Below are positions 372 through 51,415 of a stretch of DNA of 64,000 bases, in pieces (the first letter of the stretch is position 1; the number at the start of each line of letters is the position of its first letter). Position numbers and translations under genes: made by a program. The stretch comes from Patescibacteria group bacterium (lineage in GTDB: Bacteria > Patescibacteriota > Minisyncoccia > Phycocordibacterales > Phycocordibacteraceae), in contig JAZJYZ010000001.1 of NCBI GenBank assembly GCA_040390125.1, positions 506,396 to 570,395 on the forward strand, given 5' to 3'. Under the pieces are notes generated by a model that ran no database searches, was not told the DNA's origin, and worked only from the letters and a program-made list of their open reading frames with translations.

Positions 372-448
372 TCTTAGGGATCTTCTTGACGGCTCATACT
401 GATTTCTGGTACTATAGCTAAGTCCAACTCAGATTCCGATTCGCTCAA

Positions 449-664: not shown

Positions 665-673
665 TTTACACAC

Positions 674-790
674 ATGAAAGTTCTCGCATCGGTAAAGAAG
701 CAACAGGCAGGCGATATTCTCGTTCGCCGTCGTGGTCGCTTGTACCGAATCAACAAGAGAAACCCTCGTCGTAAAGCTCGCCAAGGTTAA
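674..790 (+). CDS. rpmJ: 50S ribosomal protein L36, zinc-independent (C-minus) form
   Basis: 38 aa [38 protein letters not shown]; L36 length/ends (MKV..SVK, ..RQG) but lacks the Cys/His zinc ligands, resembling the ykgO-type paralog; below 60-aa ORF-track cutoff. Confidence 0.8.
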
Positions 791-841
791 GCATTTCTGA
801 CTATTTTCTACACTCTACCTACTAAACTATTCTAATTAATT

Positions 842-4024: not shown

Positions 4025-4414
4025 ATGGCAACAAAATATATTGAAACGATAGGAAGAAGAAAAACGGCATCTGCACGTGTTCGACTAACTGAAAACAGCA
4101 AACAAAATGTTTCTGCAAACGGTAAAACGTTGGAAGAGTATTTCCGCACCCCAGAATTAGTGCGTATTTCTGTTGCACCACTTTCACATCATGAAAAGAA
4201 ATTTTCTATCACGGCGGTACTTCGTGGCGGTGGCATTGCAGGACAAGCAGTAGCACTTTCCCACGGTATTGCTCGTGCAATAGTTGAGTTTGATGCAACG
4301 TCTCGAACACCTTTGAAGAAACTAGGACTTTTGAAGCGTGACCCTCGTGCTAAGGAACGTAAAAAACCAGGTCTCAAGAAAGCTCGCAAAGCAGCTCAAT
4401 GGAGCAAACGCTAA
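4025..4414 (+). CDS. rpsI: 30S ribosomal protein S9
   Basis: ...ETIGRRKTASARVRL...GGGIAGQAVALSHGIARA...RDPRAKERKKPGLKKARKAAQWSKR; canonical rplM-rpsI pair. Confidence 0.95.
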   Translation: MATKYIETIGRRKTASARVRLTENSKQNVSANGKTLEEYFRTPELVRISVAPLSHHEKKFSITAVLRGGGIAGQAVALSHGIARAIVEFDATSRTPLKKLGLLKRDPRAKERKKPGLKKARKAAQWSKR

Positions 4415-4657
4415 GCAGTTAGCGTTTGCTCCGGTTCAGCTTGCCTCCTTAGGCAAACGCTGAAACGTCCGTTGCCGAAACTTGTGAGGCAGGGCGTAGG
4501 AGGGCGAAGCGATAGAACAAAACTGCTTTTGTTTTTCTATGCACTTCGACAAGCGGAACGATGTTTCGACTTTTGGTCGAAACCGTGAGCTGGGCTCGCA
4601 AGTACTTAGTAACTTGTGAGGCAAAGGCTAACTGCTTAGCGTTTGCTCCGGTTCAGC
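4409..4657. repeat. Two copies of a 22-nt direct repeat (TTAGCGTTTGCTCCGGTTCAGC at 4419-4440 and 4636-4657), each abutting a 13-bp-stem palindrome (GAGCAAACGCTAA-loop-TTAGCGTTTGCTC) that spans the rpsI stop; internal 8-bp-stem hairpin at 4562-4586
   Basis: Read directly; loop of the palindrome is inverted between the two copies (GCAG vs CTGC); lies at the left junction of the putative island. Confidence 0.7.
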
Positions 4658-4759
4658 CCTGCAAAAAACAAAAAACCGAGAACTAACACCTGAAAGCTAA
4701 TTCACGCTTTCTCCACAGTTGTAATTTTGTATTTTCTGGAGTCCTAGCATAATGAAGTT

Positions 4760-7700
4760 ATGAAATATAGGGGACCTTCAAGCCCCGTTCGTATTAGTCT
4801 TTCAACAAGACTCCTTTCGAAAACACCAGCATTCATGTTGGCGTTTTTTATTTTTTTTGGAGTGCTCGTAGCACAAAATATATATGCCTTCGGAACCGGA
4901 GAGCCAACGGTATTTAATCCTAATGTGTTTGGTTTTGAATCATCGAATTTAAAAGTGGAGGGACCAACAGGTGCCCTCACTGAGCGAATCCCTATCGCTA
5001 TTCCTCCAGGGCGAAATGGGTTGCAGCCCGATATTACTCTCGAATACAACAGTCAGCGCACCGAAGACAGTATTGTCGGATACGGCTGGAGCTTATCGAT
5101 TCCCTATATCCAACGCATGAATAAGGCGGGTTCGCAGGATTTGTATTCTGCAGATGCCGTATTCAGCTCCTCTATGGATGGGGAGTTGGTTCAAGTTTCG
5201 ACCACGACAGTAACTCATCGTGCACGGGTGGATACGGGTGCTTCTAACTCCTATTCTTTCTCTGGAAACACGTGGACTGTCTATGACAAGAAAGGCACTC
5301 GCTATACGTTCGGGATGGACGATGCATCTCGTCAGTACGATTCTGCAACCACCTCAGCCAGAACCTACACATGGATGCTCAGCGAAATTCGGGACACGAA
5401 CGATAATACGGTCGTATTCCATTACACCAGAGATGGCAATCAGCTCTATCCGAGCCAGATAAATTACACCGGTTCTGCTGCAGTAGAAGGCCCGCTTGCG
5501 GTGACTTTTGCAACCAGCACGAGGCCTGATGTGCGGGAAAGCTACAAAACAGGCTTTAAGGTAACAACGAACTATCGGATTTCGGAGATAGATACACTCA
5601 TCGCCTCAAGCACGGTGGGGAAGTACCTCCTTTCATACGGCACGGGTAGTAACGGCGTACGCTCCCTTCTCACTAGTATTCAGCAGCAGGGATACGATGA
5701 AAATAATACGCTCTCATCGCTTCCAGCAATGACATTCGCATACGCAAGCTCCTCTTCTATGTTCTATACGCTGAGTAGCGGAGGTGACATCCTGCTTAAT
5801 TCGCAGGTGGAAATTCCATCAGACGTAAACGGTAATGGAAAGAACGATATAACAGGATTTTATTACAATCACAATAACTCTACGGTAGGTGCTGACTTAT
5901 ATATCGATCAGTCAACGACAGTCACCGGTATAACTCCACCTGACTATTGGGGTAGAAAGTCAGGTGCTAATCTCGTGCCGGAAGAGCGAGGTACAAGATA
6001 TTTAGATGTGAACGGAGACGGTAAGGCGGACGTTGTGAAAGGACTCGAAGATAATTACAATGCAACCACTACAAGAAGTCTGTATGTGAATAGTTACGCC
6101 ACCTCAACCGATGCATACAGTTGGACAGCATCAACAACATACACGGGCACAATTCCTTTGTTTGGGTATTCAAGTACGTACCTCACTTTGACATCTGGTC
6201 TCTTTGGCGAAATAAACGGCGATGGTCTACCTGATTATGTTATGGCACTGCCCGGATACACTGGCACGGAAACGTATCTCGGAAACGGCTCTACATGGAA
6301 TGCGACAACCACCACATTTGCTCCGATCTATAACATGCCCACCACGGCACCCACGGAAAATGCCTCACAGTTAATAGATATGAACGGCGATGGACTCGAT
6401 GATTGGGTTTATTCTATAGGCTCCAACACGTACGCACGTCTCAATAATGGAACTGGATGGAATGGCTCGGCAAGCAGTCAGTGGACTATCGCGACCTCAA
6501 CGCTCTATCAAACATCAGTTGGTGGGAGCACTGTCTACTACGATCGTGGAATTCGATTTATGGATATGAACGGTGACGGTTTACCTGACTTTGTTCGCTC
6601 ATACTATATGCCAACACATACTGCGTGTACTGGTGTTGCCCAAGGAGAAGTTGCAACAGTAAAGCAAGTATTGCTCAACACCGGAAATGGGTGGGCAACA
6701 TCCACTGCGTATACTCTTCCAGAATATATTGTGTATGGAGTTGTTGACTCCTCAAGTCCGTGTAATTTCACAGGTGTTTTTTCACACAGAGAATACAGTA
6801 ACTGGATAGGTAATGGGCAAATGAAGCAGGATGTGATGACTCGTAGCACATCTGCGAAAGGTGCTGAGAAAAGTATTATTTACACCCCCTCTACTCAATT
6901 AGGAACAAACCCTGAATTACCCGCCTCGCTTCTGGTCGTGACTGAAATGGGGGAAAGTGATGGTTTTGGTAACACTGCCACCACTTCATATCAATACTCT
7001 GGCGGAAAAGTTTACCTTGCAAACGGAATCCGCGATCGCAAATTTGCCGGTTTTGCTCTGTCGACCAGCACCTCACCGGATTCTGTTGCAGTAACATACT
7101 TCAGTCAAGGAACGGGACTTAATACGACGTTGGGCGAGCAAACGAATGGGTATGCACAGATTAATCGTCCTTTCAGAAAGGATCTCTTTGATCTTTCTAA
7201 TGTACTTAAAAAACACACCTATTACCGTTGGGATTCAAGTACGATTGCGAGTAGCACGTTCGTGGGACTTGGGCGCGAACTCATCCTTGATTATGCAACT
7301 GACGGCAGCACCCATCGTGATAAGGGAACTGATTTTCTCTATGCATCAACAACTAACGACCTTCTTCGGACTATAGAGTACGGGGAAGTGAGTGGCTCCT
7401 CGGACGGCACATTTTCAGACATTGGCACTGACAAACGCACCACGCTCTTTACGTATACTGCCTCGACCTCAGTCAATATGAGCGTACCTCGGAGCAAAAC
7501 TCTCTCTGATTACAGCAACGCCACGACGACCGATGAACGTTACTATTACGATACTCTTTCATTTGGGAACGTCACGAAAGGGAATAAGACCACAAGTGAA
7601 AAGTTGAAGTCGGGCATTACATACGTCAGTAGCCAAAATGCTTATAACAGCTATGGTCTTCCTACGTCTGCAACGGATCCTCGGGGCAAAGTGACTACGT

Positions 7701-10700
7701 ATAACTATGATTCCAAGAATCTCTATATTGCGACGTCCACCAACCCACTTTCGCAAACCACCCAGTTCTACTACGACTACTCGCTAGGCAAGCCAAAGCA
7801 AACTATAGACCCAAATGGACGCATCTTTGAAACAACATACGATGGAGTTGATCGGCCGCTGGCGGAAAAACAGCCGAATATTTCGAACCCAACTTCTTTA
7901 GTAAACAAGAAAACCTACGCATATACTGACACCATTGGTTCACGCAAAATTATTGAAACAAATTATCTCGATGGTTCGACTGATTTCACTTTTCACACCT
8001 ATCTCGATGGCCTCAACCGCCCCATACAAACAAGAAAAGAAGCTGAAACAGCCGACCAGTTCTCGGTCAAGGATTTTGTATACAACAACGCAGGACTTCT
8101 TAAAAAAGAATCTCTACCATATTTCTCGGGAGGTTCTTCCAAAACATCTGCTTCAGCAACTGACGCATTGTATTCAAGATACACATACGATGCTTTGAAA
8201 CGCCCTTTAACTATCGCCAATGCTGTCGGCACTACCACGAATACCTATGGTGCATGGATAGCAACTACGACCGATGCTCTCGGAAATGCTCGTGGTCTCG
8301 CCTATGACGCATTCGGCCGATTGGTGCAGGTGACGCTTCCTGATACGGGCAACGTAACCGCATACACGTATGACACTGTTGGCAATCTGTCATCCATCAC
8401 CGATGCGAATGCGAATGTCCGCAACTTTACCTATGACGCTCTTGGTCGGCGACTTACTGCGGAAGATGTACATGCCGGAGGAGACGGAACATACGGCACA
8501 TGGAGCTATGTCTATGACGCTTCGGGCAATCTTGCTTCGACCACCGATCCGAAAAGTCAGCAGGTGGATTATATGTACGATGACATCAATCGTCTCCTTA
8601 CCGAAAACTATACCGGCCAAGGTGGCACGGAAGTCTCCTATGCGTACGACTCTTGCACGGAAGGCATTGGACGCCTATGCATCGCAACCTCAACAGATGC
8701 CATATCTTCGTTTACCTATAACGCACTCGGTTTAACCGCAAGTGAATCGAAAAACATTGCTTCGACTGTATATCTCACTTCTTATGCGTATGATCGCCAG
8801 AGCAACATCACTGGCATCGTCTATCCTGATAATTCGGAAGTTGAATACTCATACAATACGGCGGGTTTGCTCGAAAGTGTCGCACAAAAAGAAAGTGGCG
8901 ATTCCTTCCTGAATCTCATATCAGATTTTGATTATACTCCAACTGAAAAAGTCACTTTCAAGGCGTTTGCAAATGGGATTCAGAGTACATATGACTATGA
9001 TGCAAACACTTTATACCGACTCGCCAACATCTACACTTCCGCTTCTTCAACTGAAGGTGGGGGAGGAATGGGATTTGGTGGAAGCTTCTGGAGCAATATT
9101 GCTCGTGCCGTAGAAAATTTCCCGTTTGCCCTCCGAGGCAAGCTTGCATTTGCAGAGGAGCTTTCAGAAATACCGGCAATACTCGAAACTGAATTGAACC
9201 TTGAAAATCCCAGTTCTTCAGAAACTCCTGAAGAACCAGTTTTGCCTGAAGTGGCAGAGCTTGCGGTTCCTGAAGAATCAATTCTGTCCGAACCAATAGA
9301 AGAAGAAAATGCTCCGCTCACGCCTCCTGTTGTTGAAATGTTTGAATCGACTTCAACGGAATCGATGATTGAATCAGAAACTGAAGAAGTGCCGGCGGTA
9401 ATCCAGGAAGTAGAGGGAGAAGTATTGGTGGAAGATGAAGCGTCTCCGAAAACTGAAGTTGAGAAAGACCTACCTTTTGAAACGATTAGAGCGGCTGTGG
9501 AAGGGAGGTCCGCTTCCGAACGAGCTAGCATTAAAGGTCAAGAAGTTGCAAAGATTTCTTCCATCCCTCGAACACCTCGAAAAGGGTATGACATCGAAAT
9601 AGTTTCAATGGAACCCATCGATGGTGGTATTCAGGTGTTTGTAAGAGCTTGGAAGAATTGCAAACTGCTTTGCAATTCTTCCGATCCTGCCATGCAGGAA
9701 GAATCCCTGTCGGAGACAGATTCTAGGAGGGACGATGACATGCAGATAGGATTCGGTCTCGACGGCTCCGTAGACATGGAGCGTTTCCGCATCTTCAATC
9801 CACCGATTCTTGTTGAAGACGAAAAGGGCGATATCGTTCGAAATTGGGAAGATCCTGATAGTAAAAAATTGGAAGAACACCGGTTTCGTGAAGATCCAAA
9901 AGAAGCCCTCCTTCAAGTAATCGAGCAGAATCTTTCCATTATGAAAAATATCCATACTGACGGCAAGATTATTCCAGAAAAACGAGGTAATACGACTGAC
10001 ACCTATTATCCAGATGCAAATCCTGAAAGCACGTCAACCGATGGATTTACCGACGACGATAACAACTGGAACTATCACCGGAGTTGGGCACAGGTGCATG
10101 ACGGGGACGGTACGCAGGGGCGACAATCTGCTAATGCCACAAGCGAATATCTCTCTGTGCTGGCCGACAAGGGCAATGATGGAGGGCTATACTATCACAT
10201 GCGACGTACTCACATTTTGTTTGACACAAGTGCCATTGGAAGCGGAGACATTGTGTCGAGTGCAACTCTGTCCATCTACGGCGTATCCAAATCCGATGGT
10301 CAAAGCGATAGCCTATACGTAACCGATACCAATCCGGCCAGCACTACGGAGATTGTTGCAACCGACATGGACAATGTCACCATCCACGGCGCAACCGCAT
10401 ATGCTACACCAATAACTGTTGCAAGTTTCTCAACGAGCGGATATAACAACTTCTCGTTGAATTCAAATGGACTTGCTGCCGTCAATAAAATAGGGATTAG
10501 CAAGTTCTCACTGAGACTCGGACTTGATTTCAACGAAACCTCTTCTCATGATTCCCCGCCCGGAAGTGCAGATAATTACCTCTCAATGTACGCTTCAGAC
10601 CAGTCCGGCACTGCAAACGATCCGAAACTTGTTGTCGAGCATACCGCCGCCCCCAACTCGACCTCCACCCCTCCGACCAATCTTCTCGCTGAAGGACAGA

Positions 10701-12496
10701 CTAATCCACCGAACATTACCGACCCGACGCCTGAGTTCTCTGCGATCTATAACGATCCTGATGCTACCGACTCAGCAATGAACTATAAAATTCAAGTTGC
10801 TACGTCCTCTTCGTTCACAAGCCTCAAATGGGACTCAGGCAAAACCGCCCTCGGTGTCCCTACGGCCCAAGGCTCTCGCATCGCTGACATTTCATACGCC
10901 GGCTCCGCTCTCGCATCCTCCACCACCTACTACTGGCGCATAAAATTCTGGGACGTGGCTGATGCAGAAGGTGAGTGGAGTACCGCAACTTCCACTTTCG
11001 CCCTCGCCTCAAGCTATACACCACCCCCTGCTCAGACAGGAGGTATCCAGAACATTTCTTTCACCTACGACGCTGTTGGTAATATCACACTTCTTACAGA
11101 ATCCGCCACTTCAACTGGCCTCTATCGAAGCGTCACCTACACGTATGACACCCTATATCGCTTAACGAACGCTAGTACGACCGTTGCCTCATCAACTCCA
11201 TACTCTCGTTCATACACATACAGCAAGCTTGGCAATATGCTTTCGTCCGACCTCGGTGCGTATGCATATGCGGGCACAGGATACGCCAACTCCCATGCAG
11301 TGACGTCGATAGGAAACGGCATTGCCACTACTACCTATGGATATGACAACAATGGGAACCTCATCACTTCCGGCTCAAACACCTACGCGTGGGACTACAG
11401 GAACCACCTCACCTCCACAACAGTTGGCGGTATCGTTACCTCCTTCGGATATGATCACACGGCTAATAGAATGTTTAAATCCACAAACTTCGCCACCACC
11501 ACAACCCCCAATAAGTACTACACCACCACCTCAGCCACAACCACCAAAAACATATTCACTCCCGGTGGAGAGTTGATTGCCACAATCATCGGTACAGGCG
11601 CAAACGCAACGACCACGTACGTACATACAGATTGGTTAGGGGGGACGAACGTAGTCACGAATGAAGATTCAGACACTGTTGAAGTTGAAGATCCATATCC
11701 GTATGGGGCATCGAGAATAAGCGAGACGTATGGCGTGTCGAAAAACCAACGACAATTTGCTGGAACCGAGAGGGATAGTGAAGTGAATTTGGACTACATG
11801 ATTAATCGTTTTTACGATCCGTCCCGAGGACAATTTATCTCGGAAGATCCTACATTTTGGAGACGACAGAATCTCGAAAATCCACAGAGTTTTAATTCTT
11901 ATTCGTATGCGGAAGGGAATCCTATAAATAAAAAAGATCCTGAGGGACTTGAAGCATATGGAGTCGGTATAACTATAGGAGCTGAGGGTGGGCTTGGAGT
12001 TTTTGCAGGTTTCACATTTAGTGCAGGGCTTAGTTATGTACACAATCCAGATACTGACCAACGTTGGTTTGCGGCACCAGTTAGCTTTGGTAGTACAGCA
12101 GGAATATTTGGATCTAGTGTCAGTTATCCGAAATCTGATATATCGCCAACAGTAATGGGGGCATATGCCGGAGCTGGTTTAAATGTAAATTACTCGCCCA
12201 ATGCAAAAACACCGAATGATATCCGTGGTGTTCAAACCAGCTTAAATTTCAATATTCCCGCCGCTTCGGTTTCTATACAAGGTGGGCAAACAAATTCCCC
12301 GACAATATCAGGCGGGCTAGGAGTCAAAGGAGTTGGATCTGGAAGTATGTATTCTGTGCAAACTTGGGCACCAGCTGTAAGTTTTAGTACAATCAAGACT
12401 GTTACAAGCAGTATGGTAGGCTCATTGCAGACAGCTATTAATCAACTTCAACAAAAAACAAACACGACCAGTAATCAGAGTAAGAAAAAACCATGA
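4760..12496 (+). CDS. Giant (2578 aa) surface/secreted polymorphic toxin: N-terminal signal/TM anchor, SpvB/TcB-like N-domain, FG-GAP/VCBS-like Ca-binding beta-propeller repeats, RHS/YD-repeat shell interrupted by an acidic low-complexity + FN3-like insertion, RHS core ending DPEGL, C-terminal Gly-rich toxin tip
   Basis: Motifs: ...PIAIPPGRNGLQPDITLEYNSQ...GYGWSL (SpvB/TcB-N); DVNGDGKADVV, EINGDGLPDYV, DMNGDGLDDWV, MDMNGDGLPDFV (FG-GAP-like); many YxYDxxGNL YD repeats; core ...RQFAGTERDSEVNLDYMINRFYDPSRGQFISEDP...NPINKKDPEGL; single uninterrupted ORF. Confidence 0.85.
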   Translation: MKYRGPSSPVRISLSTRLLSKTPAFMLAFFIFFGVLVAQNIYAFGTGEPTVFNPNVFGFESSNLKVEGPTGALTERIPIAIPPGRNGLQPDITLEYNSQRTEDSIVGYGWSLSIPYIQRMNKAGSQDLYSADAVFSSSMDGELVQVSTTTVTHRARVDTGASNSYSFSGNTWTVYDKKGTRYTFGMDDASRQYDSATTSARTYTWMLSEIRDTNDNTVVFHYTRDGNQLYPSQINYTGSAAVEGPLAVTFATSTRPDVRESYKTGFKVTTNYRISEIDTLIASSTVGKYLLSYGTGSNGVRSLLTSIQQQGYDENNTLSSLPAMTFAYASSSSMFYTLSSGGDILLNSQVEIPSDVNGNGKNDITGFYYNHNNSTVGADLYIDQSTTVTGITPPDYWGRKSGANLVPEERGTRYLDVNGDGKADVVKGLEDNYNATTTRSLYVNSYATSTDAYSWTASTTYTGTIPLFGYSSTYLTLTSGLFGEINGDGLPDYVMALPGYTGTETYLGNGSTWNATTTTFAPIYNMPTTAPTENASQLIDMNGDGLDDWVYSIGSNTYARLNNGTGWNGSASSQWTIATSTLYQTSVGGSTVYYDRGIRFMDMNGDGLPDFVRSYYMPTHTACTGVAQGEVATVKQVLLNTGNGWATSTAYTLPEYIVYGVVDSSSPCNFTGVFSHREYSNWIGNGQMKQDVMTRSTSAKGAEKSIIYTPSTQLGTNPELPASLLVVTEMGESDGFGNTATTSYQYSGGKVYLANGIRDRKFAGFALSTSTSPDSVAVTYFSQGTGLNTTLGEQTNGYAQINRPFRKDLFDLSNVLKKHTYYRWDSSTIASSTFVGLGRELILDYATDGSTHRDKGTDFLYASTTNDLLRTIEYGEVSGSSDGTFSDIGTDKRTTLFTYTASTSVNMSVPRSKTLSDYSNATTTDERYYYDTLSFGNVTKGNKTTSEKLKSGITYVSSQNAYNSYGLPTSATDPRGKVTTYNYDSKNLYIATSTNPLSQTTQFYYDYSLGKPKQTIDPNGRIFETTYDGVDRPLAEKQPNISNPTSLVNKKTYAYTDTIGSRKIIETNYLDGSTDFTFHTYLDGLNRPIQTRKEAETADQFSVKDFVYNNAGLLKKESLPYFSGGSSKTSASATDALYSRYTYDALKRPLTIANAVGTTTNTYGAWIATTTDALGNARGLAYDAFGRLVQVTLPDTGNVTAYTYDTVGNLSSITDANANVRNFTYDALGRRLTAEDVHAGGDGTYGTWSYVYDASGNLASTTDPKSQQVDYMYDDINRLLTENYTGQGGTEVSYAYDSCTEGIGRLCIATSTDAISSFTYNALGLTASESKNIASTVYLTSYAYDRQSNITGIVYPDNSEVEYSYNTAGLLESVAQKESGDSFLNLISDFDYTPTEKVTFKAFANGIQSTYDYDANTLYRLANIYTSASSTEGGGGMGFGGSFWSNIARAVENFPFALRGKLAFAEELSEIPAILETELNLENPSSSETPEEPVLPEVAELAVPEESILSEPIEEENAPLTPPVVEMFESTSTESMIESETEEVPAVIQEVEGEVLVEDEASPKTEVEKDLPFETIRAAVEGRSASERASIKGQEVAKISSIPRTPRKGYDIEIVSMEPIDGGIQVFVRAWKNCKLLCNSSDPAMQEESLSETDSRRDDDMQIGFGLDGSVDMERFRIFNPPILVEDEKGDIVRNWEDPDSKKLEEHRFREDPKEALLQVIEQNLSIMKNIHTDGKIIPEKRGNTTDTYYPDANPESTSTDGFTDDDNNWNYHRSWAQVHDGDGTQGRQSANATSEYLSVLADKGNDGGLYYHMRRTHILFDTSAIGSGDIVSSATLSIYGVSKSDGQSDSLYVTDTNPASTTEIVATDMDNVTIHGATAYATPITVASFSTSGYNNFSLNSNGLAAVNKIGISKFSLRLGLDFNETSSHDSPPGSADNYLSMYASDQSGTANDPKLVVEHTAAPNSTSTPPTNLLAEGQTNPPNITDPTPEFSAIYNDPDATDSAMNYKIQVATSSSFTSLKWDSGKTALGVPTAQGSRIADISYAGSALASSTTYYWRIKFWDVADAEGEWSTATSTFALASSYTPPPAQTGGIQNISFTYDAVGNITLLTESATSTGLYRSVTYTYDTLYRLTNASTTVASSTPYSRSYTYSKLGNMLSSDLGAYAYAGTGYANSHAVTSIGNGIATTTYGYDNNGNLITSGSNTYAWDYRNHLTSTTVGGIVTSFGYDHTANRMFKSTNFATTTTPNKYYTTTSATTTKNIFTPGGELIATIIGTGANATTTYVHTDWLGGTNVVTNEDSDTVEVEDPYPYGASRISETYGVSKNQRQFAGTERDSEVNLDYMINRFYDPSRGQFISEDPTFWRRQNLENPQSFNSYSYAEGNPINKKDPEGLEAYGVGITIGAEGGLGVFAGFTFSAGLSYVHNPDTDQRWFAAPVSFGSTAGIFGSSVSYPKSDISPTVMGAYAGAGLNVNYSPNAKTPNDIRGVQTSLNFNIPAASVSIQGGQTNSPTISGGLGVKGVGSGSMYSVQTWAPAVSFSTIKTVTSSMVGSLQTAINQLQQKTNTTSNQSKKKP

Positions 12497-12497
12497 T

Positions 12498-13016
12498 ATG
12501 AAAAACCTATATAAGCGATTGTTTGATTATAGTGAGAATATTCAATTTGAATGCGTTGTTTCCATGGAAGAGGCATTAAAGCGATTAGCAGAAAAACTAC
12601 AAAAGCAGAGTGTCTTTATATTTTTAACTTCTACCGTATCGCATCCGTCGCTTATGGGGCAAATAACAAAAAATTCAGTTAAATTGCACAGAGTCGTTCC
12701 TTTTCTGGGCAATATTTATAAGCCAATTTTTTACGGAAGATTTAATAACAAAAATGGAAAAATTGTATTAGAAGGAATGTTTACAATGAGTCCCATCGCC
12801 AAGATCTCAACCCTCCTTTTCTTAACAATCTTTGTGGCTATTGAAATAATTATGCTTCCAGTAGGATTTGCTCAAGCTGATCCATCTGCAATATTATTAC
12901 TATTTGCGATTCCTATTATTGCCTTTCTTCCAGTCTGTTTCCTATTTCTTGGTAGGCGTTTAGCTAGGAATGACATGGAATGGATTTCAAATCACATCAA
13001 ATCAACACTAGCCTGA
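12498..13016 (+). CDS. Candidate cognate immunity protein (C-terminal 2-TM membrane protein)
   Basis: Starts 2 nt after toxin stop; hydrophobic helices ...ISTLLFLTIFVAIEIIMLPVGF... and ...ILLLFAIPIIAFLPVCFLFLG...; position immediately 3' of RHS tip. Confidence 0.5.
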   Translation: MKNLYKRLFDYSENIQFECVVSMEEALKRLAEKLQKQSVFIFLTSTVSHPSLMGQITKNSVKLHRVVPFLGNIYKPIFYGRFNNKNGKIVLEGMFTMSPIAKISTLLFLTIFVAIEIIMLPVGFAQADPSAILLLFAIPIIAFLPVCFLFLGRRLARNDMEWISNHIKSTLA

Positions 13017-13046
13017 AATAGTGTTCTTCTCTAACTACAATTAATC

Positions 13047-13442
13047 ATGAACTTCGGTGACGTAAAAACTATACTTGAATCTCTCACCGAGTTGGTTAAA
13101 AAAACTGCTACTCTCGATCTGCAAGAAAAGATTGTGAATTTGCGTGAGTACATTATTTCTATTAAGGACGAAAATATTACATTGAAAGAAGAGAATCAGG
13201 CTCTTAAACTCGAACTTTCTACAGAGCATGATTTTTTTCTTAAGAACGGTTTGTATTGGAGGGAGGGCGATCAAGTGCCATTTTGTCAAAAATGCTTGGA
13301 TGGTTCCAAAAAACGCATTCATCTCCAACCTTGGAATACCACCGGAGGATGGAAGTGTTTTGAATGTACTAGCTATTACAACCCTCAGCGTGGTGCGGAT
13401 GTTCATGTCTTCAGACCGAATAGACAAAATCCTGCTCGTTAG
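13047..13442 (+). CDS. Hypothetical protein with coiled-coil N-terminus and C-terminal CxxC...CxxC zinc-ribbon-like motif
   Basis: ...PFCQKCLDGSKKRIHLQPWNTTGGWKCFECTSYY...; no family recognised. Confidence 0.4.
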   Translation: MNFGDVKTILESLTELVKKTATLDLQEKIVNLREYIISIKDENITLKEENQALKLELSTEHDFFLKNGLYWREGDQVPFCQKCLDGSKKRIHLQPWNTTGGWKCFECTSYYNPQRGADVHVFRPNRQNPAR

Positions 13443-13525
13443 ATGAGTATTTCTTTTCATAGACACCGTCAGTATCGCCACAATCGGGTAAGTCCAGTTA
13501 ATTCAGCGAAGACTTTTGGTAACTC

Positions 13526-14932
13526 ATGAAATCAGTGAAAATCCTTCGCCGTGTGCGAGTTACCGTAAAACCCCACACTTTCTCACTGGATCCAATGTGG
13601 TCTGCTTTCCTCCAGTACAAGGGGAGAGTGGTCGAAAGCCCACAAAGGAACGCCACAAATCTCTTAAGCCCGTACTGGCCGCCCAACAGGGAGAGTGCAT
13701 TCTTGTTCCCAGAATATGGAGAGGGTGTCGATGCAGTTCCTACTACTACCTATGGATATGACCAAAGCGGCAATTTGACGAGTGCAAACTCAAATCTCTA
13801 TGGCTGGGATTTTAAGAACCGAATGGCATCAACTACGGTTGGCGGCATCGTTACCACATTTGGATACGACCACGGGATCGAGCGGGTTTTCAAGAGTACG
13901 AATTTCGCAACTACAACGTATCCTTCGAAATATTATTCCGCTACTAGTGCAACGACCACCAAGTATGTATTTGCTGGAGATGAGCTGATTGCGACCATTA
14001 CCACTTCTGGAGCGACATCAACAAAACAATATATTCATAATGACCATCTCGGAGGAACGAACGTCGTGACGGATGAAGACTCTAACACAGTGCAGGCTCT
14101 GGATTACTATCCGTATGGCAGTGAGAGGATAGACCAAAACTACGGGGGTTCTCCGTCTCAAAAAACTTACATCGGACTTTATTCAGATTCGGAAACAGAT
14201 CTTCTGTATGCCAAAGCGCGATATCTTGAACCTTCACGCGGGCAGTTCATAAGTCAGGATCCGGTTTTTTGGGAAATCGGGTTAACTCAAGACGGGCGAA
14301 ACGCTCTGATTAATCCACAGGCAGCCAATTCGTATTCGTACGCAGAAGACAATCCAATCACAAAGAAAGATCCAGACGGTAGATGCGCAGGTCCGTTTAT
14401 AGCAGCTGCGCCGGTATGTCTCGGCGTAGCATATGGAATAATAGAAACTGCGGCCACTAATCCTGATGCAACTTTCGGTCAGTATGTAGTTGGTGCAGTT
14501 AGTGGAGGTATCCAAGGTGGATTGCTCGAAGCAAGAATAGTTGGAGGGGCAATATTAGGATTTGGTTCCTCGTTAGCTCAAGATTATGTTGGTGGTCAGT
14601 CACTAAACTTCCAAAGGGCTTTCGTTGCTGCAGGTTCCAATGCAGTTGGAGCTGGCACTATTAAATCCGCTGTTAGTGGGGTTACAAATGTAGCCGCACA
14701 AGCAGGAGGTACGCTTTCTTTAAACGCTGGTTCTAGAGCTGTTGCTTCTGGGATTTCTGGAGGATATCAAACAGTTACTAACGTAAGCGCACAACGATCT
14801 TTTGCACCAGTAATTTCGCAACCTTCGAATTCTAATGCTTCAAAATCCACCTCGCCCTCATCGAGTGGAGGTGGGTTTGTTGGGCAAGTAGTGAATTCAA
14901 TTAAAAGTTTCGTATCTAGCATATTCAAATGA
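13526..14932 (+). CDS. Orphan RHS C-terminal cassette (RHS core fragment ending DPDGR + alternative Gly-rich toxin tip)
   Basis: ~65% aa similarity to aa ~2190-2390 of the giant RHS protein (TTTYGYDxxGNL...STTVGGIVT.FGYDH...KSTNFATTT...DHLGGTNVVTDEDSNTV...YYPYGSERI...SRGQFISQDP...NSYSYAEDNPITKKDPDGR) followed by unrelated Gly-zipper-like C-terminus; N-terminal 70 aa of ORF have no homology so the annotated ATG may not be used. Confidence 0.7.
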   Translation: MKSVKILRRVRVTVKPHTFSLDPMWSAFLQYKGRVVESPQRNATNLLSPYWPPNRESAFLFPEYGEGVDAVPTTTYGYDQSGNLTSANSNLYGWDFKNRMASTTVGGIVTTFGYDHGIERVFKSTNFATTTYPSKYYSATSATTTKYVFAGDELIATITTSGATSTKQYIHNDHLGGTNVVTDEDSNTVQALDYYPYGSERIDQNYGGSPSQKTYIGLYSDSETDLLYAKARYLEPSRGQFISQDPVFWEIGLTQDGRNALINPQAANSYSYAEDNPITKKDPDGRCAGPFIAAAPVCLGVAYGIIETAATNPDATFGQYVVGAVSGGIQGGLLEARIVGGAILGFGSSLAQDYVGGQSLNFQRAFVAAGSNAVGAGTIKSAVSGVTNVAAQAGGTLSLNAGSRAVASGISGGYQTVTNVSAQRSFAPVISQPSNSNASKSTSPSSSGGGFVGQVVNSIKSFVSSIFK

Positions 14933-15387
14933 AATATAAACCTAGATTAATTTGGAGTGGATCCATTGCAAGTGGACTCTTATTAATAATCTTGCTGGCT
15001 CTTAATGGCTTTCTTAGTAATCCGCTTTTATGGACAGATAAATTCGCCCTCTTACCCTTTGTTTTACTAATATTTATGGGTCTACACGTTCTTTTTGGAA
15101 TGTATGTTTTCTTTGATGAATCAAAATTATGCCGCGTGGATTTCTTTATATGGAGGAGTTGCATCGCTATCGCGGATATCCAAAGTGTTGTATACCAATC
15201 CTCCTTAATCTTTGGAGGACCAAATAAAACCGTTTCTGTTTTTGATGCAAAAGGGAAGAAGGTATTTATGGAGAGCATGCCTTTTGGCAAAGAAATGCAG
15301 AAGGATTTAATCGATAAACTTATACGCCTCAACCCCTCTATTAGATTGAATGAAGATGCCGAGGCACTTCTTCGTGAAAATAAATGA
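14929..15387 (+). CDS. Candidate immunity protein for orphan RHS tip (multi-TM membrane protein)
   Basis: ATGA overlap with orphan toxin stop; TM helices ...IASGLLLIILLALNGFL... and ...ALLPFVLLIFMGLHVLFGMYVFF... Confidence 0.5.
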   Translation: MKYKPRLIWSGSIASGLLLIILLALNGFLSNPLLWTDKFALLPFVLLIFMGLHVLFGMYVFFDESKLCRVDFFIWRSCIAIADIQSVVYQSSLIFGGPNKTVSVFDAKGKKVFMESMPFGKEMQKDLIDKLIRLNPSIRLNEDAEALLRENK

Positions 15388-15630
15388 TTCATACACACCG
15401 ACGATACCGCCACGGCAGTACAAATCCAGCTCAAATCTTGCAGATTGTTGGTAAGTCACTCTGTATCTCATCAGGTTGCTTTACAAGGAAGCTGGGCATT
15501 GTAGAGTTTGTTTACTATGGCAGATAACATAGACCTAAAAAGGACATCCAGCTTTACTTTAGAGGCAACAGATATAGTCATTCGCGAAGAAAATGGGGTC
15601 AGCCACCATTTTCAGTGATACGATACCTCC

Positions 15631-16308
15631 ATGCCTCGCATCCAGCGTACCGACATTGGTAATCATGTCTATCATGTTTTAAACCGTGCCAACGCACGAG
15701 CACAGATTTTCGACTCCAAAGAGGACTACCTTCTCTTCGAGAGCATTCTAGAAGAGGCAGTAGAGAAGTTTGATATGCGTCTTCTTGCCTATTGCCTCAT
15801 GCCTAACCATTGGCATTTCGTGCTCTATCCCCGAGCCGATGGTGACCTCGCCGCCTTCATGGGTTGGCTCACCAATACACATACCAGACGGTGGCATGTA
15901 GCCAAGAAAACCATCGGTCACGGACATCTCTACCAAGGACGATATAAATCATTTCTCTGTCAGACTGATTCGCACTTCTTGACTCTAGTGAGATACGTTG
16001 AGAGGAATGCCAAAAAAGCAAACCTCGTGCGGCGGGCGGAAAATTGGAAGTGGTCCAGTGTGTGGAGAAGAGAGGAGGGAACACTAGAACAAAAGAAAAT
16101 CCTTACGGAATGGCCGGTATCAATGCCACCACACTATCTTGCTCTACTCAATGAACCGCAAACTAAAGCAGAAGAAGATGCTCTGGAGCGGTCAATTGCA
16201 AAAAATATACCATTCGGGAGTGAGAAATGGCGTGATGTTATTATTAAAAAGCATGGTCTTGAACAAACACTCCACTCGGTCGGAAGACCTCGAAAGAATG
16301 GTGGCTGA
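15631..16308 (+). CDS. REP-associated tyrosine transposase / IS200-IS605-like Y1 HUH transposase (TnpA_REP family)
   Basis: ...HVYHVLNRANARAQIF...LLAYCLMPNHWHFVLYP... (HUH motif H-W-H + hydrophobic) and downstream Tyr-containing region ...RYVERNAKKANL...; 225 aa. Confidence 0.75.
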   Translation: MPRIQRTDIGNHVYHVLNRANARAQIFDSKEDYLLFESILEEAVEKFDMRLLAYCLMPNHWHFVLYPRADGDLAAFMGWLTNTHTRRWHVAKKTIGHGHLYQGRYKSFLCQTDSHFLTLVRYVERNAKKANLVRRAENWKWSSVWRREEGTLEQKKILTEWPVSMPPHYLALLNEPQTKAEEDALERSIAKNIPFGSEKWRDVIIKKHGLEQTLHSVGRPRKNGG

Positions 16309-16516
16309 CCCCATTTCTGACCCCATTTCCCAAGAAAGCTCGCAAAGCAGCTCAATGGAGCAAAAGATAGCTTCGGCATATTTTGGAGAATCTTACGATG
16401 TTGAAGGTGACTTCGCAGAGTTTTCCTCTGTCTGGCATCCCCCTCAACCCTCATTTCCTGAAAAAATTTCCTTCGCACTTCCACTCGCTGAAGTCAGTAG
16501 TAATGCTTGACAAATA

Positions 16517-17005
16517 TTGTATTTAGTGATGATATGTAAAGCCACTATGACTAACTTCGATTCAAGACCTGAGGGAAGATTTATGCCAGCATTTCGTGAA
16601 CCTACTTCACAAGGGCCTGCTCCTGAGCAATTTGTCCCACGAATGGAAACACTAACCAGGAGACCCGAAGGACAGGTACCTTCTATGACAAATGTCAGAA
16701 GGCTTAATTTGCCCCCTGGAGATTTCGGTCCTCAAGGCTATCGTTACGAACCAGCAACTCACTCTAAGCATTACTCCTTACCACGACGGTTAGGGTACTT
16801 GGTTGCTTCAATGATTGGTGCAGCTATGGGGCTTGCAGGTCTTATTGGCGGACCAGCTCTGGCGTATTTTGCTTTAACAACAGCCCCCTTTGTTAGCTTC
16901 ATCTTTGCGGTTCCCGTAGCTGCAGGGCTTGCCCTTGGTGTGTTGGGTGCCGCTCTGTTAGTTGGTACTCGTGATGCATTTAAAGTTGCAGCAGGAAAGG
17001 ATTAG
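16517..17005 (+). CDS. Hypothetical membrane protein (Pro/Gly-rich N-terminus, two C-terminal TM helices)
   Basis: ...LGYLVASMIGAAMGLAGLIGGPALAYFALTTAPFVSFIFAVPVAAGLALGVLGAALLV...; followed by rho-independent terminator. Confidence 0.4.
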   Translation: MYLVMICKATMTNFDSRPEGRFMPAFREPTSQGPAPEQFVPRMETLTRRPEGQVPSMTNVRRLNLPPGDFGPQGYRYEPATHSKHYSLPRRLGYLVASMIGAAMGLAGLIGGPALAYFALTTAPFVSFIFAVPVAAGLALGVLGAALLVGTRDAFKVAAGKD

Positions 17006-17042
17006 ATAAGAATCTTTTTTCTGTACTATCTTATTCCTGAAC

Positions 17043-17071
17043 GCCGTTCACATCACGTGAACGGGTTTTTT
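17043..17071 (+). terminator. Rho-independent terminator (CCGTTCACATCACGTGAACGG + GTTTTTT)
   Basis: Perfect 8-bp stem hairpin followed by T-run directly after 16517..17005. Confidence 0.7.
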
Positions 17072-17441
17072 ACATTGTGTTTTTGGAAATGGCGTCAGCC
17101 ACCATATTTTATGATTAACACCCTCACCATTTCTGCCCCCACTTTCTGAATTGTAGTTAATTATCCTGGGTATACTGAAACCCAGTATGATGTTGGAAAA
17201 TTTAAACAAATTAAAAATTGGAGAGCAATCTCAAATACTTAATTTTCAAAATTCGAAGCCTACCAAAAACGAACTCCATGTATCGTACGGAGGAAGTATT
17301 ACATCAAAAGAGATGTTGCAAATTGAAGGCGGTCTTGCTGTAGGAGTTCTTATGCTCCTCTTTATACATTTTTTAAAAAGAGATTCTCCAAAAAATAAAT
17401 AAATTCATTGACGTTTCCTAAAATTTAGGGCATATTATAAA

Positions 17442-17999
17442 GTGATGAACACTGAAGACGATGTTGTTATTGAGCCAGATGACGAAAGCTTGGAGGGGGA
17501 AGGGGCGTCAGCTACTAAACTTTCAGCTCAAATAAAAAAAATAAAAAGTGAGCTTGAAAAAGCCCTAAAGGAACGTCAAGAGTATTTAGATGGCTGGCAG
17601 AGAGCAAAAGCTGATTACGTAAATATCCGTAAGCGTGCTGAAGATGAACGCCAGGCACTGGTTAAGGGTGCTTCTAGGGGACTTGTTGAGGCACTACTGC
17701 CGGCTCTCGACAGCTTTGATCACGCTATGAGCTCAGTTGAGGGTGGTGGGGCCTGGATAGAGGGTATAAAAAACACGCACAGCCAACTCATGAAGGCACT
17801 CGAAGCAGAAGATGTGAGTGCGTTTGACCCTTTGGGGGAAATTTTTGACCCGAATGTACATGAGCCGGTTGAGACAGTTGCAGTAACAAGTGAGGTAGAG
17901 GATAATACAGTAACTAAAGTCTACCAAAAAGGGTACACCCTTCATGGTACGATTATCCGCCCAGCACGTGTTGCGGTTGGACATTATCAAAATAGTTGA
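17442..17999 (+). CDS. grpE: nucleotide exchange factor GrpE
   Basis: ...YLDGWQRAKADYVNIRKRAEDERQ...; C-terminal beta-domain ...VTKVYQKGYTLHGTIIRPARVAVG; precedes dnaK. Confidence 0.9.
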   Translation: MMNTEDDVVIEPDDESLEGEGASATKLSAQIKKIKSELEKALKERQEYLDGWQRAKADYVNIRKRAEDERQALVKGASRGLVEALLPALDSFDHAMSSVEGGGAWIEGIKNTHSQLMKALEAEDVSAFDPLGEIFDPNVHEPVETVAVTSEVEDNTVTKVYQKGYTLHGTIIRPARVAVGHYQNS

Positions 18000-18110
18000 G
18001 AGTAGAGAGTTGAAAGTAGAGTGTAGGAAATAGTAAATTTAGTTTTATAATCTTCCTTCTTCCTTCTTCCTTCTTCCTTCTTCCTTCTACCCTCTACCTT
18101 CTACTAACTA
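17999..18110. repeat. Word-based inverted repeat (GTAGAG words) with 7-bp tandem repeat (TTCTTCC)x5 plus degenerate units at 18050-18106, upstream of dnaK
   Basis: GAGTAGAGAGTTGAAAGTAGAGTGTAGG ... TCTTCCTTCTTCCTTCTTCCTTCTTCCTTCTTCCTTCTACCCTCTACCTTCTAC. Confidence 0.7.
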
Positions 18111-18125
18111 ATAACTAATACATTC

Positions 18126-20021: not shown

Positions 20022-20029
20022 ATAAAGAA

Positions 20030-20113
20030 GGTTCTAGGGACTAGCTTCTAGCTTCTAGCTTTTAGGTTTAACTTCAGAAAAACTAGCACCTAGCACCTAG
20101 AAGCTAGAACCTG
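20030..20113. repeat. Intergenic inverted repeat built from CTAGCTTCTAGC / GCACCTAGCACCTAGAAGCTAGAACC words between dnaK and dnaJ
   Basis: GGTTCTAGGGACTAGCTTCTAGCTTCTAGC...GCACCTAGCACCTAGAAGCTAGAACC. Confidence 0.7.
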
Positions 20114-20126
20114 TAAACTAACCCCT

Positions 20127-21206: not shown

Positions 21207-21207
21207 A

Positions 21208-51414: not shown

Positions 51415-51415
51415 C

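What the first reader, a model, noticed from the sequence alone, without database searches (positions are those of the whole stretch)
4375..16364. ~12-kb RHS-toxin island inserted at the 3' end of rpsI, bounded by an exact 34-bp duplication of the rpsI terminus
The last 34 nt of rpsI (CAAGAAAGCTCGCAAAGCAGCTCAATGGAGCAAA, 4375-4408) recur exactly at 16331-16364, out of frame and in non-coding context. The ~11.95 kb between them holds only accessory cargo: a giant RHS toxin with immunity, an orphan RHS tip with immunity, and a Y1 transposase. The conserved ribosomal operon ends at the left copy, and grpE-dnaK-dnaJ resume about 1 kb after the right copy. This is the attL/attR pattern of an element that integrated into a gene's 3' end and rebuilt it. 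The target is unusual, a ribosomal-protein gene rather than a tRNA. No tyrosine or serine integrase is present; the only recombinase is an HUH Y1 transposase right next to the right-hand copy.
Basis: partly seen in the sequence, partly recalled or inferred. Interest (0 to 1): 0.75.

Follow-up and report, generated by a model that had tools for sequence, protein, structure and literature searches.

The report
RHS toxin island in rpsI tail
A roughly 12-kb toxin-gene island really was inserted into the last 40 bases of the ribosomal protein S9 gene of a tiny uncultured (Patescibacteria) bacterium; it brought its own copy of the gene's end, pushed the original end 12 kb downstream, carries no integrase, and starts with a previously undescribed small folded DNA/RNA module also found at gene ends in related bacteria.

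Summary
The 34-nt repeat is exact (4375-4408 / 16331-16364). The right copy continues AGA TAG, synonymous with the left copy's CGC TAA, so it is a displaced rpsI terminus. Four relatives (S9 94%, 94%, 87%, 75%) have rpsI followed within 0.2-1.5 kb by grpE, so 11,956 bp are an insertion. An independent read assembly reproduces the right junction.

It looks like a Campbell-type insertion that rebuilt rpsI, and no integrase is present. Three points need correcting:
- The rpsI 3' end is a documented target (streptococcal IMESag-rpsI).
- The Y1 transposase belongs to a self-contained ~740-bp IS-like unit with its own 20-nt inverted repeats, found in unrelated contexts in other Patescibacteria. The island is not bounded by those repeats.
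- The island is composite. Its RHS gene has its closest homologue in a different context.

The island's left end is a stack of small structured modules. Their first hairpin pairs with the rpsI tail. Homologues lie after rpsI, dnaJ and tRNA genes elsewhere, and one at a tRNA has a perfect 22-nt target duplication. They match no Rfam family. The recombinase is unknown and presumably acts in trans.

The parts
4025..4414 (+). rpsI (ribosomal protein S9), intact; last gene of the rpsM-rpsK-rpsD-rpoA-rplQ-rplM-rpsI block
   Evidence: Pfam Ribosomal_S9 126 bits. 100% identical to P0001 from a 749-kb Patescibacteria contig.
4375..4414 (+). c1: left copy of the rpsI tail (34 nt exact plus CGC TAA), in frame and functional
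4401..4432 (+). H1 palindrome GGAGCAAACGCTAA-GCAG-TTAGCGTTTGCTCC: the rpsI tail including its stop codon pairs with the first bases of the inserted DNA
   Evidence: The arm covaries with synonymous rpsI changes in L001 and L173.
4415..4492 (+). Unit A of the small structured module, non-coding
   Evidence: The 98 nt after the stop are 90-92% identical to the sequence after rpsI in L173 and L001, while rpsI itself is 77% and 75% identical.
4493..4512 (+). c2: relic rpsI-like tail GTAGGAGGGCGAAGCGATAG; it aligns with the true rpsI ends of L089 and L115
   Evidence: Alignments.
4497..4634 (+). Unit B of the small structured module (five helices)
   Evidence: nhmmer and covariance-model hits, 97.7 bits. 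Covariation.
4611..4657 (+). c3: degenerate tail (GAGGCAAAGGCTAA), a second H1-type hairpin and CCGGTTCAGC (start of a third unit). 4636-4657 is an exact 22-nt direct repeat of 4419-4440.
4760..12496 (+). RHS/YD-repeat polymorphic toxin: SpvB and FG-GAP N-terminus, RHS shell, Rhs core, Gly/Ala/Ser-rich C-terminal tip
   Evidence: Pfam and NCBIfam. Sequence. No promoter or terminator consensus between rpsI and its start.
12498..13016 (+). 172-aa hydrophobic protein (judged by eye); presumed immunity protein for the RHS tip
   Evidence: Position and hydrophobic segments. No family hit. Function inferred.
13047..13442 (+). 131-aa ORF with apparent coiled-coil and Cys-pair motifs (by eye); function unknown
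   Evidence: Only sub-threshold Pfam hits.
13526..14932 (+). Orphan RHS C-terminal fragment with its own Rhs core and tip
   Evidence: TIGR03696 53 bits. DNA homology to the RHS core of L171.
14929..15387 (+). 152-aa hydrophobic protein (judged by eye); presumed immunity protein for the orphan tip
   Evidence: Inferred.
15591..16330 (+). Y1 (HUH) transposase unit: inverted repeats 15591-15610 and 16297-16316, ORF 15631-16308, tandem CTGACCCCATTT x2 at 16305-16329. Its right end abuts c4.
   Evidence: Pfam Y1_Tnp 62 bits. NCBIfam RAYT model 59 bits, below its cut-off of 80. Repeats. Same unit elsewhere.
16331..16370 (+). c4: displaced rpsI tail (34 nt exact plus AGA TAG), a non-coding relic
   Evidence: 90% identical to the rpsI end of L083 over 42 nt.
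16517..17005 (+). 162-aa ORF with a hydrophobic C-terminal half (by eye) in the variable rpsI-grpE spacer; relatives have similar small ORFs there
   Evidence: architecture only; no significant DNA homology.
17086..17147 (+). Transposase-less mini copy of the Y1 unit (left repeat plus right-tail motif), outside the island
17442..21206 (+). grpE-dnaK-dnaJ, the conserved right-hand neighbours of rpsI in relatives
   Evidence: Pfam GrpE. Synteny.

Best explanation
An ancestor of this Paceibacteria-type genome had rpsI (ending ...AGC AAA AGA TAG) followed by a short spacer with small membrane-protein ORFs and then grpE-dnaK-dnaJ. Foreign DNA recombined into the last 40 nt of rpsI.

The incoming DNA carried its own rpsI tail (...CGC TAA) inside a palindromic hairpin, so S9 stayed intact. 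The original tail was displaced 11,956 bp downstream as a relic. This is a Campbell-type, att-like insertion into a gene's 3' end.

The part that targets and rebuilds the tail is a small non-coding structured module (units A, B and the start of C at 4415-4657). It contains older relic tails (c2, c3), as expected for repeated insertion or accretion at this site. The RHS toxin and immunity genes, the orphan tip and the Y1 IS-like unit are cargo or later nested additions. The recombinase is not encoded in the island and must act in trans.

Shown:
- the insertion;
- the duplication and its synonymous continuation;
- the structured module and its recurrence at gene ends;
- the independence of the Y1 unit and of the RHS gene.

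Inferred:
- site-specific rather than accidental recombination;
- trans-acting enzyme;
- order of assembly.
For: - Exact 34-nt repeat with synonymous Arg-stop after it.
- Uninterrupted sites in L082, L083, L173, L175, L003, L006 and L027.
- L083 shares the AGA Arg codon with c4.
- c1 and c4 are identical over 34 nt, whereas rpsI of the nearest relatives differs by about 15% in DNA. The two copies therefore share a very recent origin.
- Unit A is 90-92% identical to L173 and L001 against 75-77% for rpsI. This fits lateral spread.
- Covariance model R1 finds the module after rpsI in L089, L102, L115, L175 and L001. It also finds it after dnaJ in L018, and at tRNA-Arg in L125 with a perfect 22-nt duplication running from the T loop to 5 nt past the tRNA end. 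That is the classical tRNA sublocation of tyrosine integrases (own knowledge). A weaker hit (21 bits) lies in a relic tRNA-Asn in L166.
- L016 and L027 have 124- and 175-nt inserts at the rpsI tail flanked by perfect 20- and 15-nt tail duplications.
- The right junction is independently assembled.
- A documented precedent for the rpsI 3' end as an att site exists.
Against: - No integrase, serine recombinase or reverse transcriptase in the island or among the large ORFs of the window.
- No second rpsI-bounded island was found among about 170 rpsI loci, so mobility of the 12 kb as a unit is undemonstrated.
- The relic's 5' edge coincides with the end of the Y1 unit. The 34-nt length may therefore have been set by that unit's insertion rather than by an att core.
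- In L089, L102, L115, L173 and L175 the module has no recognisable full tail duplicate. Many copies may thus be old, vertically kept 3'-UTR structures rather than recent insertions.
- L016 and L027 are not hit by the model, so their relation to it is unproven.
- The sequence right of c4 shows no significant DNA homology to relatives. Its native status rests on synteny only.
Confidence: 0.5

Rival explanations
1. One-off homology-facilitated illegitimate recombination. DNA from a related Paceibacterium that already had rpsI, units A/B and RHS was taken up. It was anchored by homology in the conserved ribosomal operon and joined illegitimately 40 nt before the recipient's rpsI stop. The duplication is then a by-product and no att site or dedicated enzyme exists.
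For: - No recombinase in the island.
- GC content equals the flanks and tetranucleotide deviation is confined to the RHS ORF, so a related donor is plausible.
- Units A/B exist without cargo at rpsI in L173, L001 and L175, which would be the donor-type arrangement.
- Only one such island among about 170 loci.
Against: - With about 15% DNA divergence even to the nearest relatives, 34 consecutive identical bases between donor and recipient tails are unlikely (about 0.85^34 = 0.004) unless the donor was nearly the same strain.
- Independent perfect tail duplications in L016 and L027, and at a tRNA in L125, argue for a recurrent process.
- Relic tails c2 and c3 show repeated events at the same spot.
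Confidence: 0.2
2. In situ growth. Only the small module inserted into the rpsI tail and made the c1/c4 duplication, as in L016, L027 and L125. The RHS cassette and the Y1 unit were inserted later between the module and the relic, so the '12-kb island' was never one element.
For: - Module-only loci with tail duplications exist.
- A nested exact 22-nt repeat (4419-4440 / 4636-4657) shows a second event of the same style inside the first.
- RHS homology to L171 begins exactly at the start codon, and that gene is elsewhere in the genome.
- The Y1 unit is independently mobile.
Against: - The third unit is cut off at 4657, and no matching right part of a module precedes c4. Deletions would have to be added.
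- No mechanism is known for the later RHS insertion.
Confidence: 0.15
3. The Y1 (HUH) transposase moved the whole island by single-strand 'peel and paste' or one-ended transposition.
For: - It is the only recombinase-like gene present.
- Its right end touches c4.
- Ends of this unit vary between strains (L164 versus L165), so it appears active.
Against: - Its 20-nt inverted repeats bracket only the 740-bp unit. None lies at the island's left end.
- The same unit occurs alone in unrelated contexts.
- IS200/IS605-type transposition makes no long target duplication (own knowledge).
- A mini copy lies outside the island.
Confidence: 0.07
4. Assembly artefact: a circular or separate element and an empty chromosomal site were merged through the 34-nt repeat.
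For: The short-k Logan contig breaks inside the repeat. Short-k graphs cannot tell an integrated element from a circle plus an empty site.
Against: - 34 nt is well below read length.
- The source contig is 749 kb.
- The Y1-end/c4 junction is reproduced independently.
- Even as a circle it would be an rpsI-tail-bearing element, which would strengthen the att interpretation.
Confidence: 0.03

Closest known systems
IMESag-rpsI and related streptococcal IMEs/ICEs that integrate at the 3' end of rpsI (PMC5090054, PMC5357655)
   Same: Same target gene and same end. The element sits directly 3' of an intact rpsI and is bounded by att sites.
   Different: Those elements encode their own integrase and mobilisation genes and occur in Firmicutes. 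Here there is no integrase or relaxase, the host is a Patescibacterium, the cargo is an RHS toxin locus, and a structured non-coding module sits at attL.
CIMEs and site-specific accretion of att-flanked elements (described for streptococcal ICE/CIME arrays; own knowledge, not checked in a paper here)
   Same: Tandem att-like relics (c1, c2, c3, c4) separating modules that lack recombination genes. The composite could be mobilised in trans.
   Different: The modules here are only 80-220 nt, have a covarying secondary structure, and their first helix pairs with the target gene's tail. This has not been described for CIMEs.
Integrative elements that replace a gene's 3' end, such as phage 21 and e14 in icd, or tRNA-gene islands using the T-loop sublocation (own knowledge)
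   Same: The element carries a surrogate 3' end with synonymous differences. The original end is left as a relic at the far junction. The L125 copy uses the T loop-to-3'-end block of a tRNA.
   Different: No integrase next to either junction.
RAYT/REP systems and IS200/IS605 Y1 transposases (PMC5581495; ISDra2 TnpA, PDB 2XM3)
   Same: The 225-aa protein has a Y1_Tnp domain and an HWH (HUH-type) motif, and is flanked by inverted hairpin-forming repeats as RAYT genes are.
   Different: - It scores below the NCBIfam RAYT cut-off.
- Homologues are 70-83% identical across Patescibacteria, more conserved than S9, and sit in varied contexts. That is IS-like rather than domesticated behaviour.
- It does not bound the island.
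Rhs polymorphic toxin loci with orphan tip and immunity modules (PMC3482391)
   Same: RHS shell, Rhs core motif, variable C-terminal tip, downstream small immunity-like ORF, and an orphan core-plus-tip fragment with its own immunity-like ORF.
   Different: SpvB/FG-GAP N-terminus with a hydrophobic, signal-like start (by eye) in an organism with no secretion-system gene identified in this window. The locus may be co-transcribed with the ribosomal protein operon.

Membership tests
Integrase-type integrative element (genomic island / IME) | Insertion absent from the same site in relatives | tested here: met
   L082, L083, L173, L175, L003, L006 and L027 have rpsI followed within 0.2-1.5 kb by grpE.
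Integrase-type integrative element (genomic island / IME) | Direct repeats at both junctions that contain the target gene's 3' end, with the gene reconstituted by element DNA | tested here: met
   34-nt exact repeat. CGC TAA on the left versus AGA TAG on the right, both encoding Arg-stop.
Integrase-type integrative element (genomic island / IME) | Tyrosine or serine recombinase gene inside the element | tested here: not met
   Pfam and NCBIfam on all island ORFs found none. Only 203 nt and about 345 nt of the island are unassigned.
Integrase-type integrative element (genomic island / IME) | Excision to a circle, or empty site detectable in the population | not testable with these tools
   Needs read mapping of SRR26324623 and of the MAG's source reads.
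IS200/IS605 or RAYT (Y1 HUH transposase element) | Y1_Tnp domain with HUH and catalytic Tyr motifs | tested here: met
   PF01797 62 bits. HWH and YQGRY in the sequence. Profile hit to ISDra2 TnpA 2XM3, E 0.0065.
IS200/IS605 or RAYT (Y1 HUH transposase element) | Curated RAYT model cut-off (NF047646, 80 bits) | tested here: not met
   59.1 bits.
IS200/IS605 or RAYT (Y1 HUH transposase element) | The element's hairpin repeats bound the mobile segment (here, the 12-kb island) | tested here: not met
   Repeats lie only at 15591, 16297 and 17087. They bound a 740-bp unit.
IS200/IS605 or RAYT (Y1 HUH transposase element) | Many dispersed REP/REPIN copies in the genome | tested here: inconclusive
   Three copies in 64 kb, all local. 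The rest of the genome was not available.
Rhs polymorphic toxin locus | RHS/YD repeats plus Rhs-associated core, followed by a variable tip | tested here: met
   PF05593 96 bits and TIGR03696 58 bits at aa 2313-2397. DPEGL followed by a tip with no family hit.
Rhs polymorphic toxin locus | Cognate immunity gene directly downstream; orphan tip plus immunity module | tested here: inconclusive
   Small hydrophobic ORFs in the expected positions, and an orphan with TIGR03696 53 bits. Immunity function was not tested.
Any Rfam RNA family (for the small structured module) | Match at gathering score | tested here: not met
   No hit in the window at gathering score or at E<=10 for 4300-4800. Only sub-threshold terminator-like hits in L089, L016 and L027.

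The most novel reading that the evidence does not exclude
The small module (units A/B; model R1) may be a new kind of non-autonomous, structure-dependent mobile element of Patescibacteria. It would home to the extreme 3' ends of highly expressed genes (rpsI, dnaJ, tRNAs) and pair its first helix with the target's tail. It would regenerate or duplicate 14-34 nt of that tail, be co-transcribed with the host gene, and be able to nucleate or carry cargo such as this RHS island. Movement would be by a trans-acting, possibly unconventional (ssDNA- or RNA-guided) recombination mechanism.
Probability: 0.3. Interest if true: 0.75.

Novelty: new variant of a known kind. Interest (0 to 1): 0.55.

Why it matters
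Patescibacteria have tiny genomes and few recognised mobile elements, so it is unclear how they acquire large weapons such as RHS toxins. This locus gives a concrete, datable acquisition at an essential ribosomal gene. It shows that the rpsI 3' end, known as an att site in streptococci, is also used in a very distant phylum, here without a resident integrase.

The by-product may matter more. The small module shows covariation in 41 of its 50 modelled base pairs and is absent from Rfam. Its first helix tracks synonymous changes in the upstream gene's last codons, and it recurs at rpsI, dnaJ and tRNA ends. It is either a new 3'-UTR RNA class or the cis-acting part of an undescribed insertion system. 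Covariance model R1 makes it directly searchable.

Tried and rejected
- Rfam, on the whole window at gathering score and permissively on four element regions: no family.
- tRNA/tmRNA scan of the window: none.
- Exact-protein look-ups for S9 and ORF162: not on record.
- Metagenome scan with S9: no relative closer than 63%.
- Scan of viral contigs for the module core: one chance hit in a GC-rich coding region.
- Motif hits in L011 and L005, and a 14-mer repeat in L009, turned out to be coding or chance matches.
- DNA homology of the right flank (16365-16520) to relatives is not above shuffled controls, so I do not claim it.
- Composition: GC is the same as the flanks. Tetranucleotide deviation (z 2-4) is confined to the RHS ORF and is probably due to its repeats, so it is not evidence of foreign origin.
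- Search for a second rpsI-tail copy in about 170 rpsI loci: only this window and L016 have a full second tail; L027's 15-nt repeat is too short for the protein-pattern scan.
- Integrase or RT search among the window's other large ORFs: all housekeeping.
- phmmer of the Y1 protein against PDB: nothing. The profile gives only a weak ISDra2 TnpA hit.
- L016 and L027 inserts are not recovered by model R1 or nhmmer. Their kinship to units A/B rests on short motifs seen by eye and is left open.
- I considered CRISPR-transposon homing spacers, TnpB omega-RNA guides, IS110 bridge RNA, group I/II introns, DGR and integron attC as analogies. None fits the long direct tail duplication together with the adjacent inverted copy and the absence of the cognate protein.

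Full report
**Observation**

The 34-mer at 4375-4408 recurs exactly at 16331-16364. No other match exists with up to three mismatches, and shuffled sequence gave none. rpsI is 4025-4414 (Pfam Ribosomal_S9), so the repeat covers nt -40 to -7 of the gene.

The six bases after the left copy are CGC TAA. Those after the right copy are AGA TAG, which also encode Arg-stop. A random hexamer does this with p about 0.004. The right copy is therefore a whole displaced rpsI tail (KKARKAAQWSKR-stop) with no ORF in front of it.

A Logan assembly of run SRR26324623 (L176) is 100% identical to window 6598-16360 and stops 30 nt into the repeat. The junction between the Y1 unit and the relic is thus reproduced independently.

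**Organism and empty sites**

- The S9 protein is identical to one from a 749-kb Patescibacteria contig.
- Relatives with S9 94% (L082, L083), 87% (L173) and 75% (L175) have rpsI followed by 0.2-1.5 kb of spacer with small ORFs, then grpE-dnaK-dnaJ.
- More distant genomes (L003, L006, L027) show the same order.
- L083 ends its rpsI with AAA AGA TAA, the same Arg codon as the right copy here.
- These 'relatives' still differ by about 15% in rpsI DNA. The perfect 34-nt identity of the two copies therefore means a recent common origin, not ordinary orthology.
- The sequence immediately right of the relic has no significant DNA similarity to relatives. Its native status rests on gene order.

**Cargo**

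- 4760-12496 encodes a 2578-aa protein with a hydrophobic, signal-like N-terminus (by eye), SpvB and FG-GAP regions, RHS repeats, an Rhs core (DPEGL) and a Gly/Ala/Ser-rich tip.
- It is followed by a 172-aa hydrophobic ORF and a 131-aa ORF with apparent coiled-coil and Cys-pair motifs (by eye).
- Next come a 468-aa orphan RHS fragment with its own core and tip, and a 152-aa hydrophobic ORF.
- Immunity roles are inferred from position.
- The closest RHS homologue (64% aa, L171) lies between unrelated housekeeping genes, and DNA homology starts exactly at the start codon.
- Another homologue (L172) lies beside what looks by eye like a tRNA 3' fragment and has a large serine recombinase 4 kb downstream. 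RHS cassettes in this phylum therefore sit at various sites.
- No promoter- or terminator-like site lies between rpsI and the RHS start. Read-through from the ribosomal operon is possible.

**The Y1 transposase**

- The 225-aa ORF (15631-16308) has a Y1_Tnp domain (62 bits). Its best NCBIfam match is the RAYT model, but below that model's cut-off (59 versus 80 bits). A profile matches ISDra2 TnpA only weakly.
- It is bracketed by perfect 20-nt inverted repeats (15591-15610 and 16297-16316) and a 12-nt tandem duplication of the right repeat's half.
- Homologues at 70-83% identity are very common in Patescibacteria, more conserved than S9.
- In L164-L170 the ATGGGGTCAGCC/GGCTGACCCCAT core of these repeats flanks each copy; the full repeats were read in L164, L165 and L166. 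The neighbourhoods are unrelated, for example upstream of mraZ.
- L164 and L165 differ by an extra right-end copy.
- A transposase-less mini copy lies at 17086-17147, outside the island.
- The Y1 gene therefore belongs to a self-contained ~740-bp IS-like unit whose right end happens to abut the relic. The island's left end has no such repeat. This makes the Y1 enzyme an unlikely agent for the island, and it means the relic's 5' edge may have been set by this unit.

**The left end: a structured module**

- The 98 nt after the rpsI stop (unit A) are 90-92% identical to the sequence after rpsI in L173 and L001. The rpsI genes themselves are only 77% and 75% identical.
- The next part (unit B, 4497-4634) is homologous to segments directly after rpsI in L089, L102, L115 and L175, and after dnaJ in L018.
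- A covariance model built from five copies (R1) finds L175 at 95 bits although it was not in the seed. It also finds L001 (33 bits), a copy at the 3' end of tRNA-Arg in L125 (28 bits) and one inside a relic tRNA-Asn in L166 (21 bits).
- On the model-fitted alignment, 90% of cells pair, against 67% in shuffles and about 42% when partners are slid. 41 of 50 pairs show double changes, and 0 of 500 shuffles reach this. The alignment leans toward the model, but the RNAalifold result on a plain MAFFT alignment agrees (33 of 50 pairs).
- Conserved G-U pairs make the structure strand-specific, and the module is always co-oriented with the upstream gene.

**The first helix pairs with the gene tail**

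- The first helix is formed between the last 10-15 nt of the upstream ORF, stop codon included, and the first bases of the module.
- It follows synonymous changes:
  - GGAGCAAACGCTAA/TTAGCGTTTGCTCC here;
  - GGAGTAAACGCTAA/TTAGCGTTTACTCC in L001;
  - GGAGTAAACGATAA/TTATCGTTTACTCC in L173;
  - GATATAAG/CTTATATC at dnaJ in L018.
- Most module-free sites checked (L081, L082, L083, L006) show little or no such pairing; the distant L003 does show some.

**Relic tails and nested repeats**

- Within the window the module contains two degenerate rpsI-like tails. c2 (4493-4512) aligns with the true rpsI ends of L089 and L115. c3 is about 4611-4631.
- It also contains an exact 22-nt direct repeat (4419-4440 / 4636-4657).
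- In L125 the module is flanked by a perfect 22-nt duplication from the T loop to 5 nt past the tRNA.
- L016 and L027 have 124- and 175-nt inserts at the rpsI tail with perfect 20- and 15-nt duplications. Neither is recovered by R1, so their kinship is open.
- No Rfam family matches any of these regions.

**Mechanism**

The anatomy is that of a Campbell-type insertion into a gene's 3' end with an element-borne surrogate tail. This is known for rpsI in streptococci (IMESag-rpsI, 'always integrated at ... the 3'-end of ... rpsI') and, from general knowledge, for icd and tRNA genes.

What differs:
- No integrase is present.
- The tail-bearing end is a covarying structured module.
- Relic tails are stacked as in site-specific accretion.
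- The cargo and the Y1 unit have independent histories.

I therefore favour (0.5) a trans-catalysed, att-like insertion of a composite whose targeting part is the small module. The alternatives are:
- a single homology-facilitated illegitimate event from a near-identical donor (0.2);
- stepwise growth inside an original small-module insertion (0.15);
- Y1-driven movement (0.07);
- assembly artefact (0.03).

How the module itself moves, and whether it acts as RNA or as single-stranded DNA, is not resolved. The covariation of its first helix could also come from quasipalindrome correction rather than selection.

**Novelty and score**

Gene-end islands, RHS orphan arrays and RAYT-like units are all known, and so is the rpsI target. 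The new aspects are the phylum, the absence of an integrase, and the structured tail-pairing module that recurs at rpsI, dnaJ and tRNA ends. I rate this a new variant of a known kind, interest 0.55. There is a 0.3 chance that the module is a new class of gene-end-homing element (interest 0.75 if true).

Noticed in passing
L166 about 440-1000 (minus strand): A tRNA-Asn locus where an older tRNA copy seems interrupted at the D loop, the anticodon loop and the T loop. The anticodon-loop insert carries a complete replacement tRNA-Asn flanked by a 14-nt inverted extension of its acceptor stem. The T-loop insert is a copy of the small module (R1, 21 bits).
   Followed up: partly
L164 6660-6760 versus L165 925-960: Two assemblies with the same gene neighbourhood (Y1 unit upstream of mraZ) differ by an extra copy of the Y1 unit's right repeat plus CCCCATTTTCC-type half-repeats. 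This suggests ongoing end processing by this transposase.
   Followed up: partly
window 17086-17147: Transposase-less miniature of the Y1 unit (left repeat plus right-tail motif) between ORF162 and a 71-aa small ORF, just after a terminator-like hairpin at about 17040-17072.
   Followed up: yes
L016 10382-10525; L027 10370-10559: Short non-coding inserts (124 and 175 nt) exactly at the rpsI tail in two distant Patescibacteria, flanked by perfect 20- and 15-nt duplications of the tail. They share short motifs by eye (AGGAGAGCA, GTTGAGAACC hairpin) but are not recovered by model R1.
   Followed up: partly
L172 1-60 and 12354-13679: An RHS homologue (57% aa) begins 214 nt after what looks like the 3' part of a tRNA at the contig start. 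A large serine recombinase lies 4 kb downstream. In other Patescibacteria, RHS islands may therefore be integrase-borne.
   Followed up: no
window 18051-18102, 20043-20112, 21205-21290, 36858-36891, 56342-56375, 62954-62985: Intergenic regions carry simple heptamer or 14-mer repeats (TCTTCCT x7, CAGCTTT x5, AGCTTTC x5) and AGCT-rich palindromes after dnaK and dnaJ. This appears to be a genome-wide style of terminator-like low-complexity hairpins.
   Followed up: no
window 12200-12496 and 14400-14932 (protein tips): Both RHS C-terminal tips are Gly/Ala/Ser-rich and hydrophobic, and both downstream ORFs look like multi-pass membrane proteins (by eye). This suggests membrane-active toxins with membrane immunity proteins. 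No family match.
   Followed up: partly
window 4415-4760: No promoter-like or canonical terminator-like site between the rpsI stop and the RHS start. The toxin gene may ride on read-through from the ribosomal protein operon.
   Followed up: partly
window 35746-36756 (minus strand): 336-aa ORF with a weak type IV secretion pilin domain (26.1 bits, just below the 26.6-bit Pfam cut-off) in an otherwise housekeeping stretch.
   Followed up: no
window 51415-55587: About 4 kb with only small ORFs (under 140 aa) and no Rfam or tRNA hit. Content not examined.
   Followed up: no
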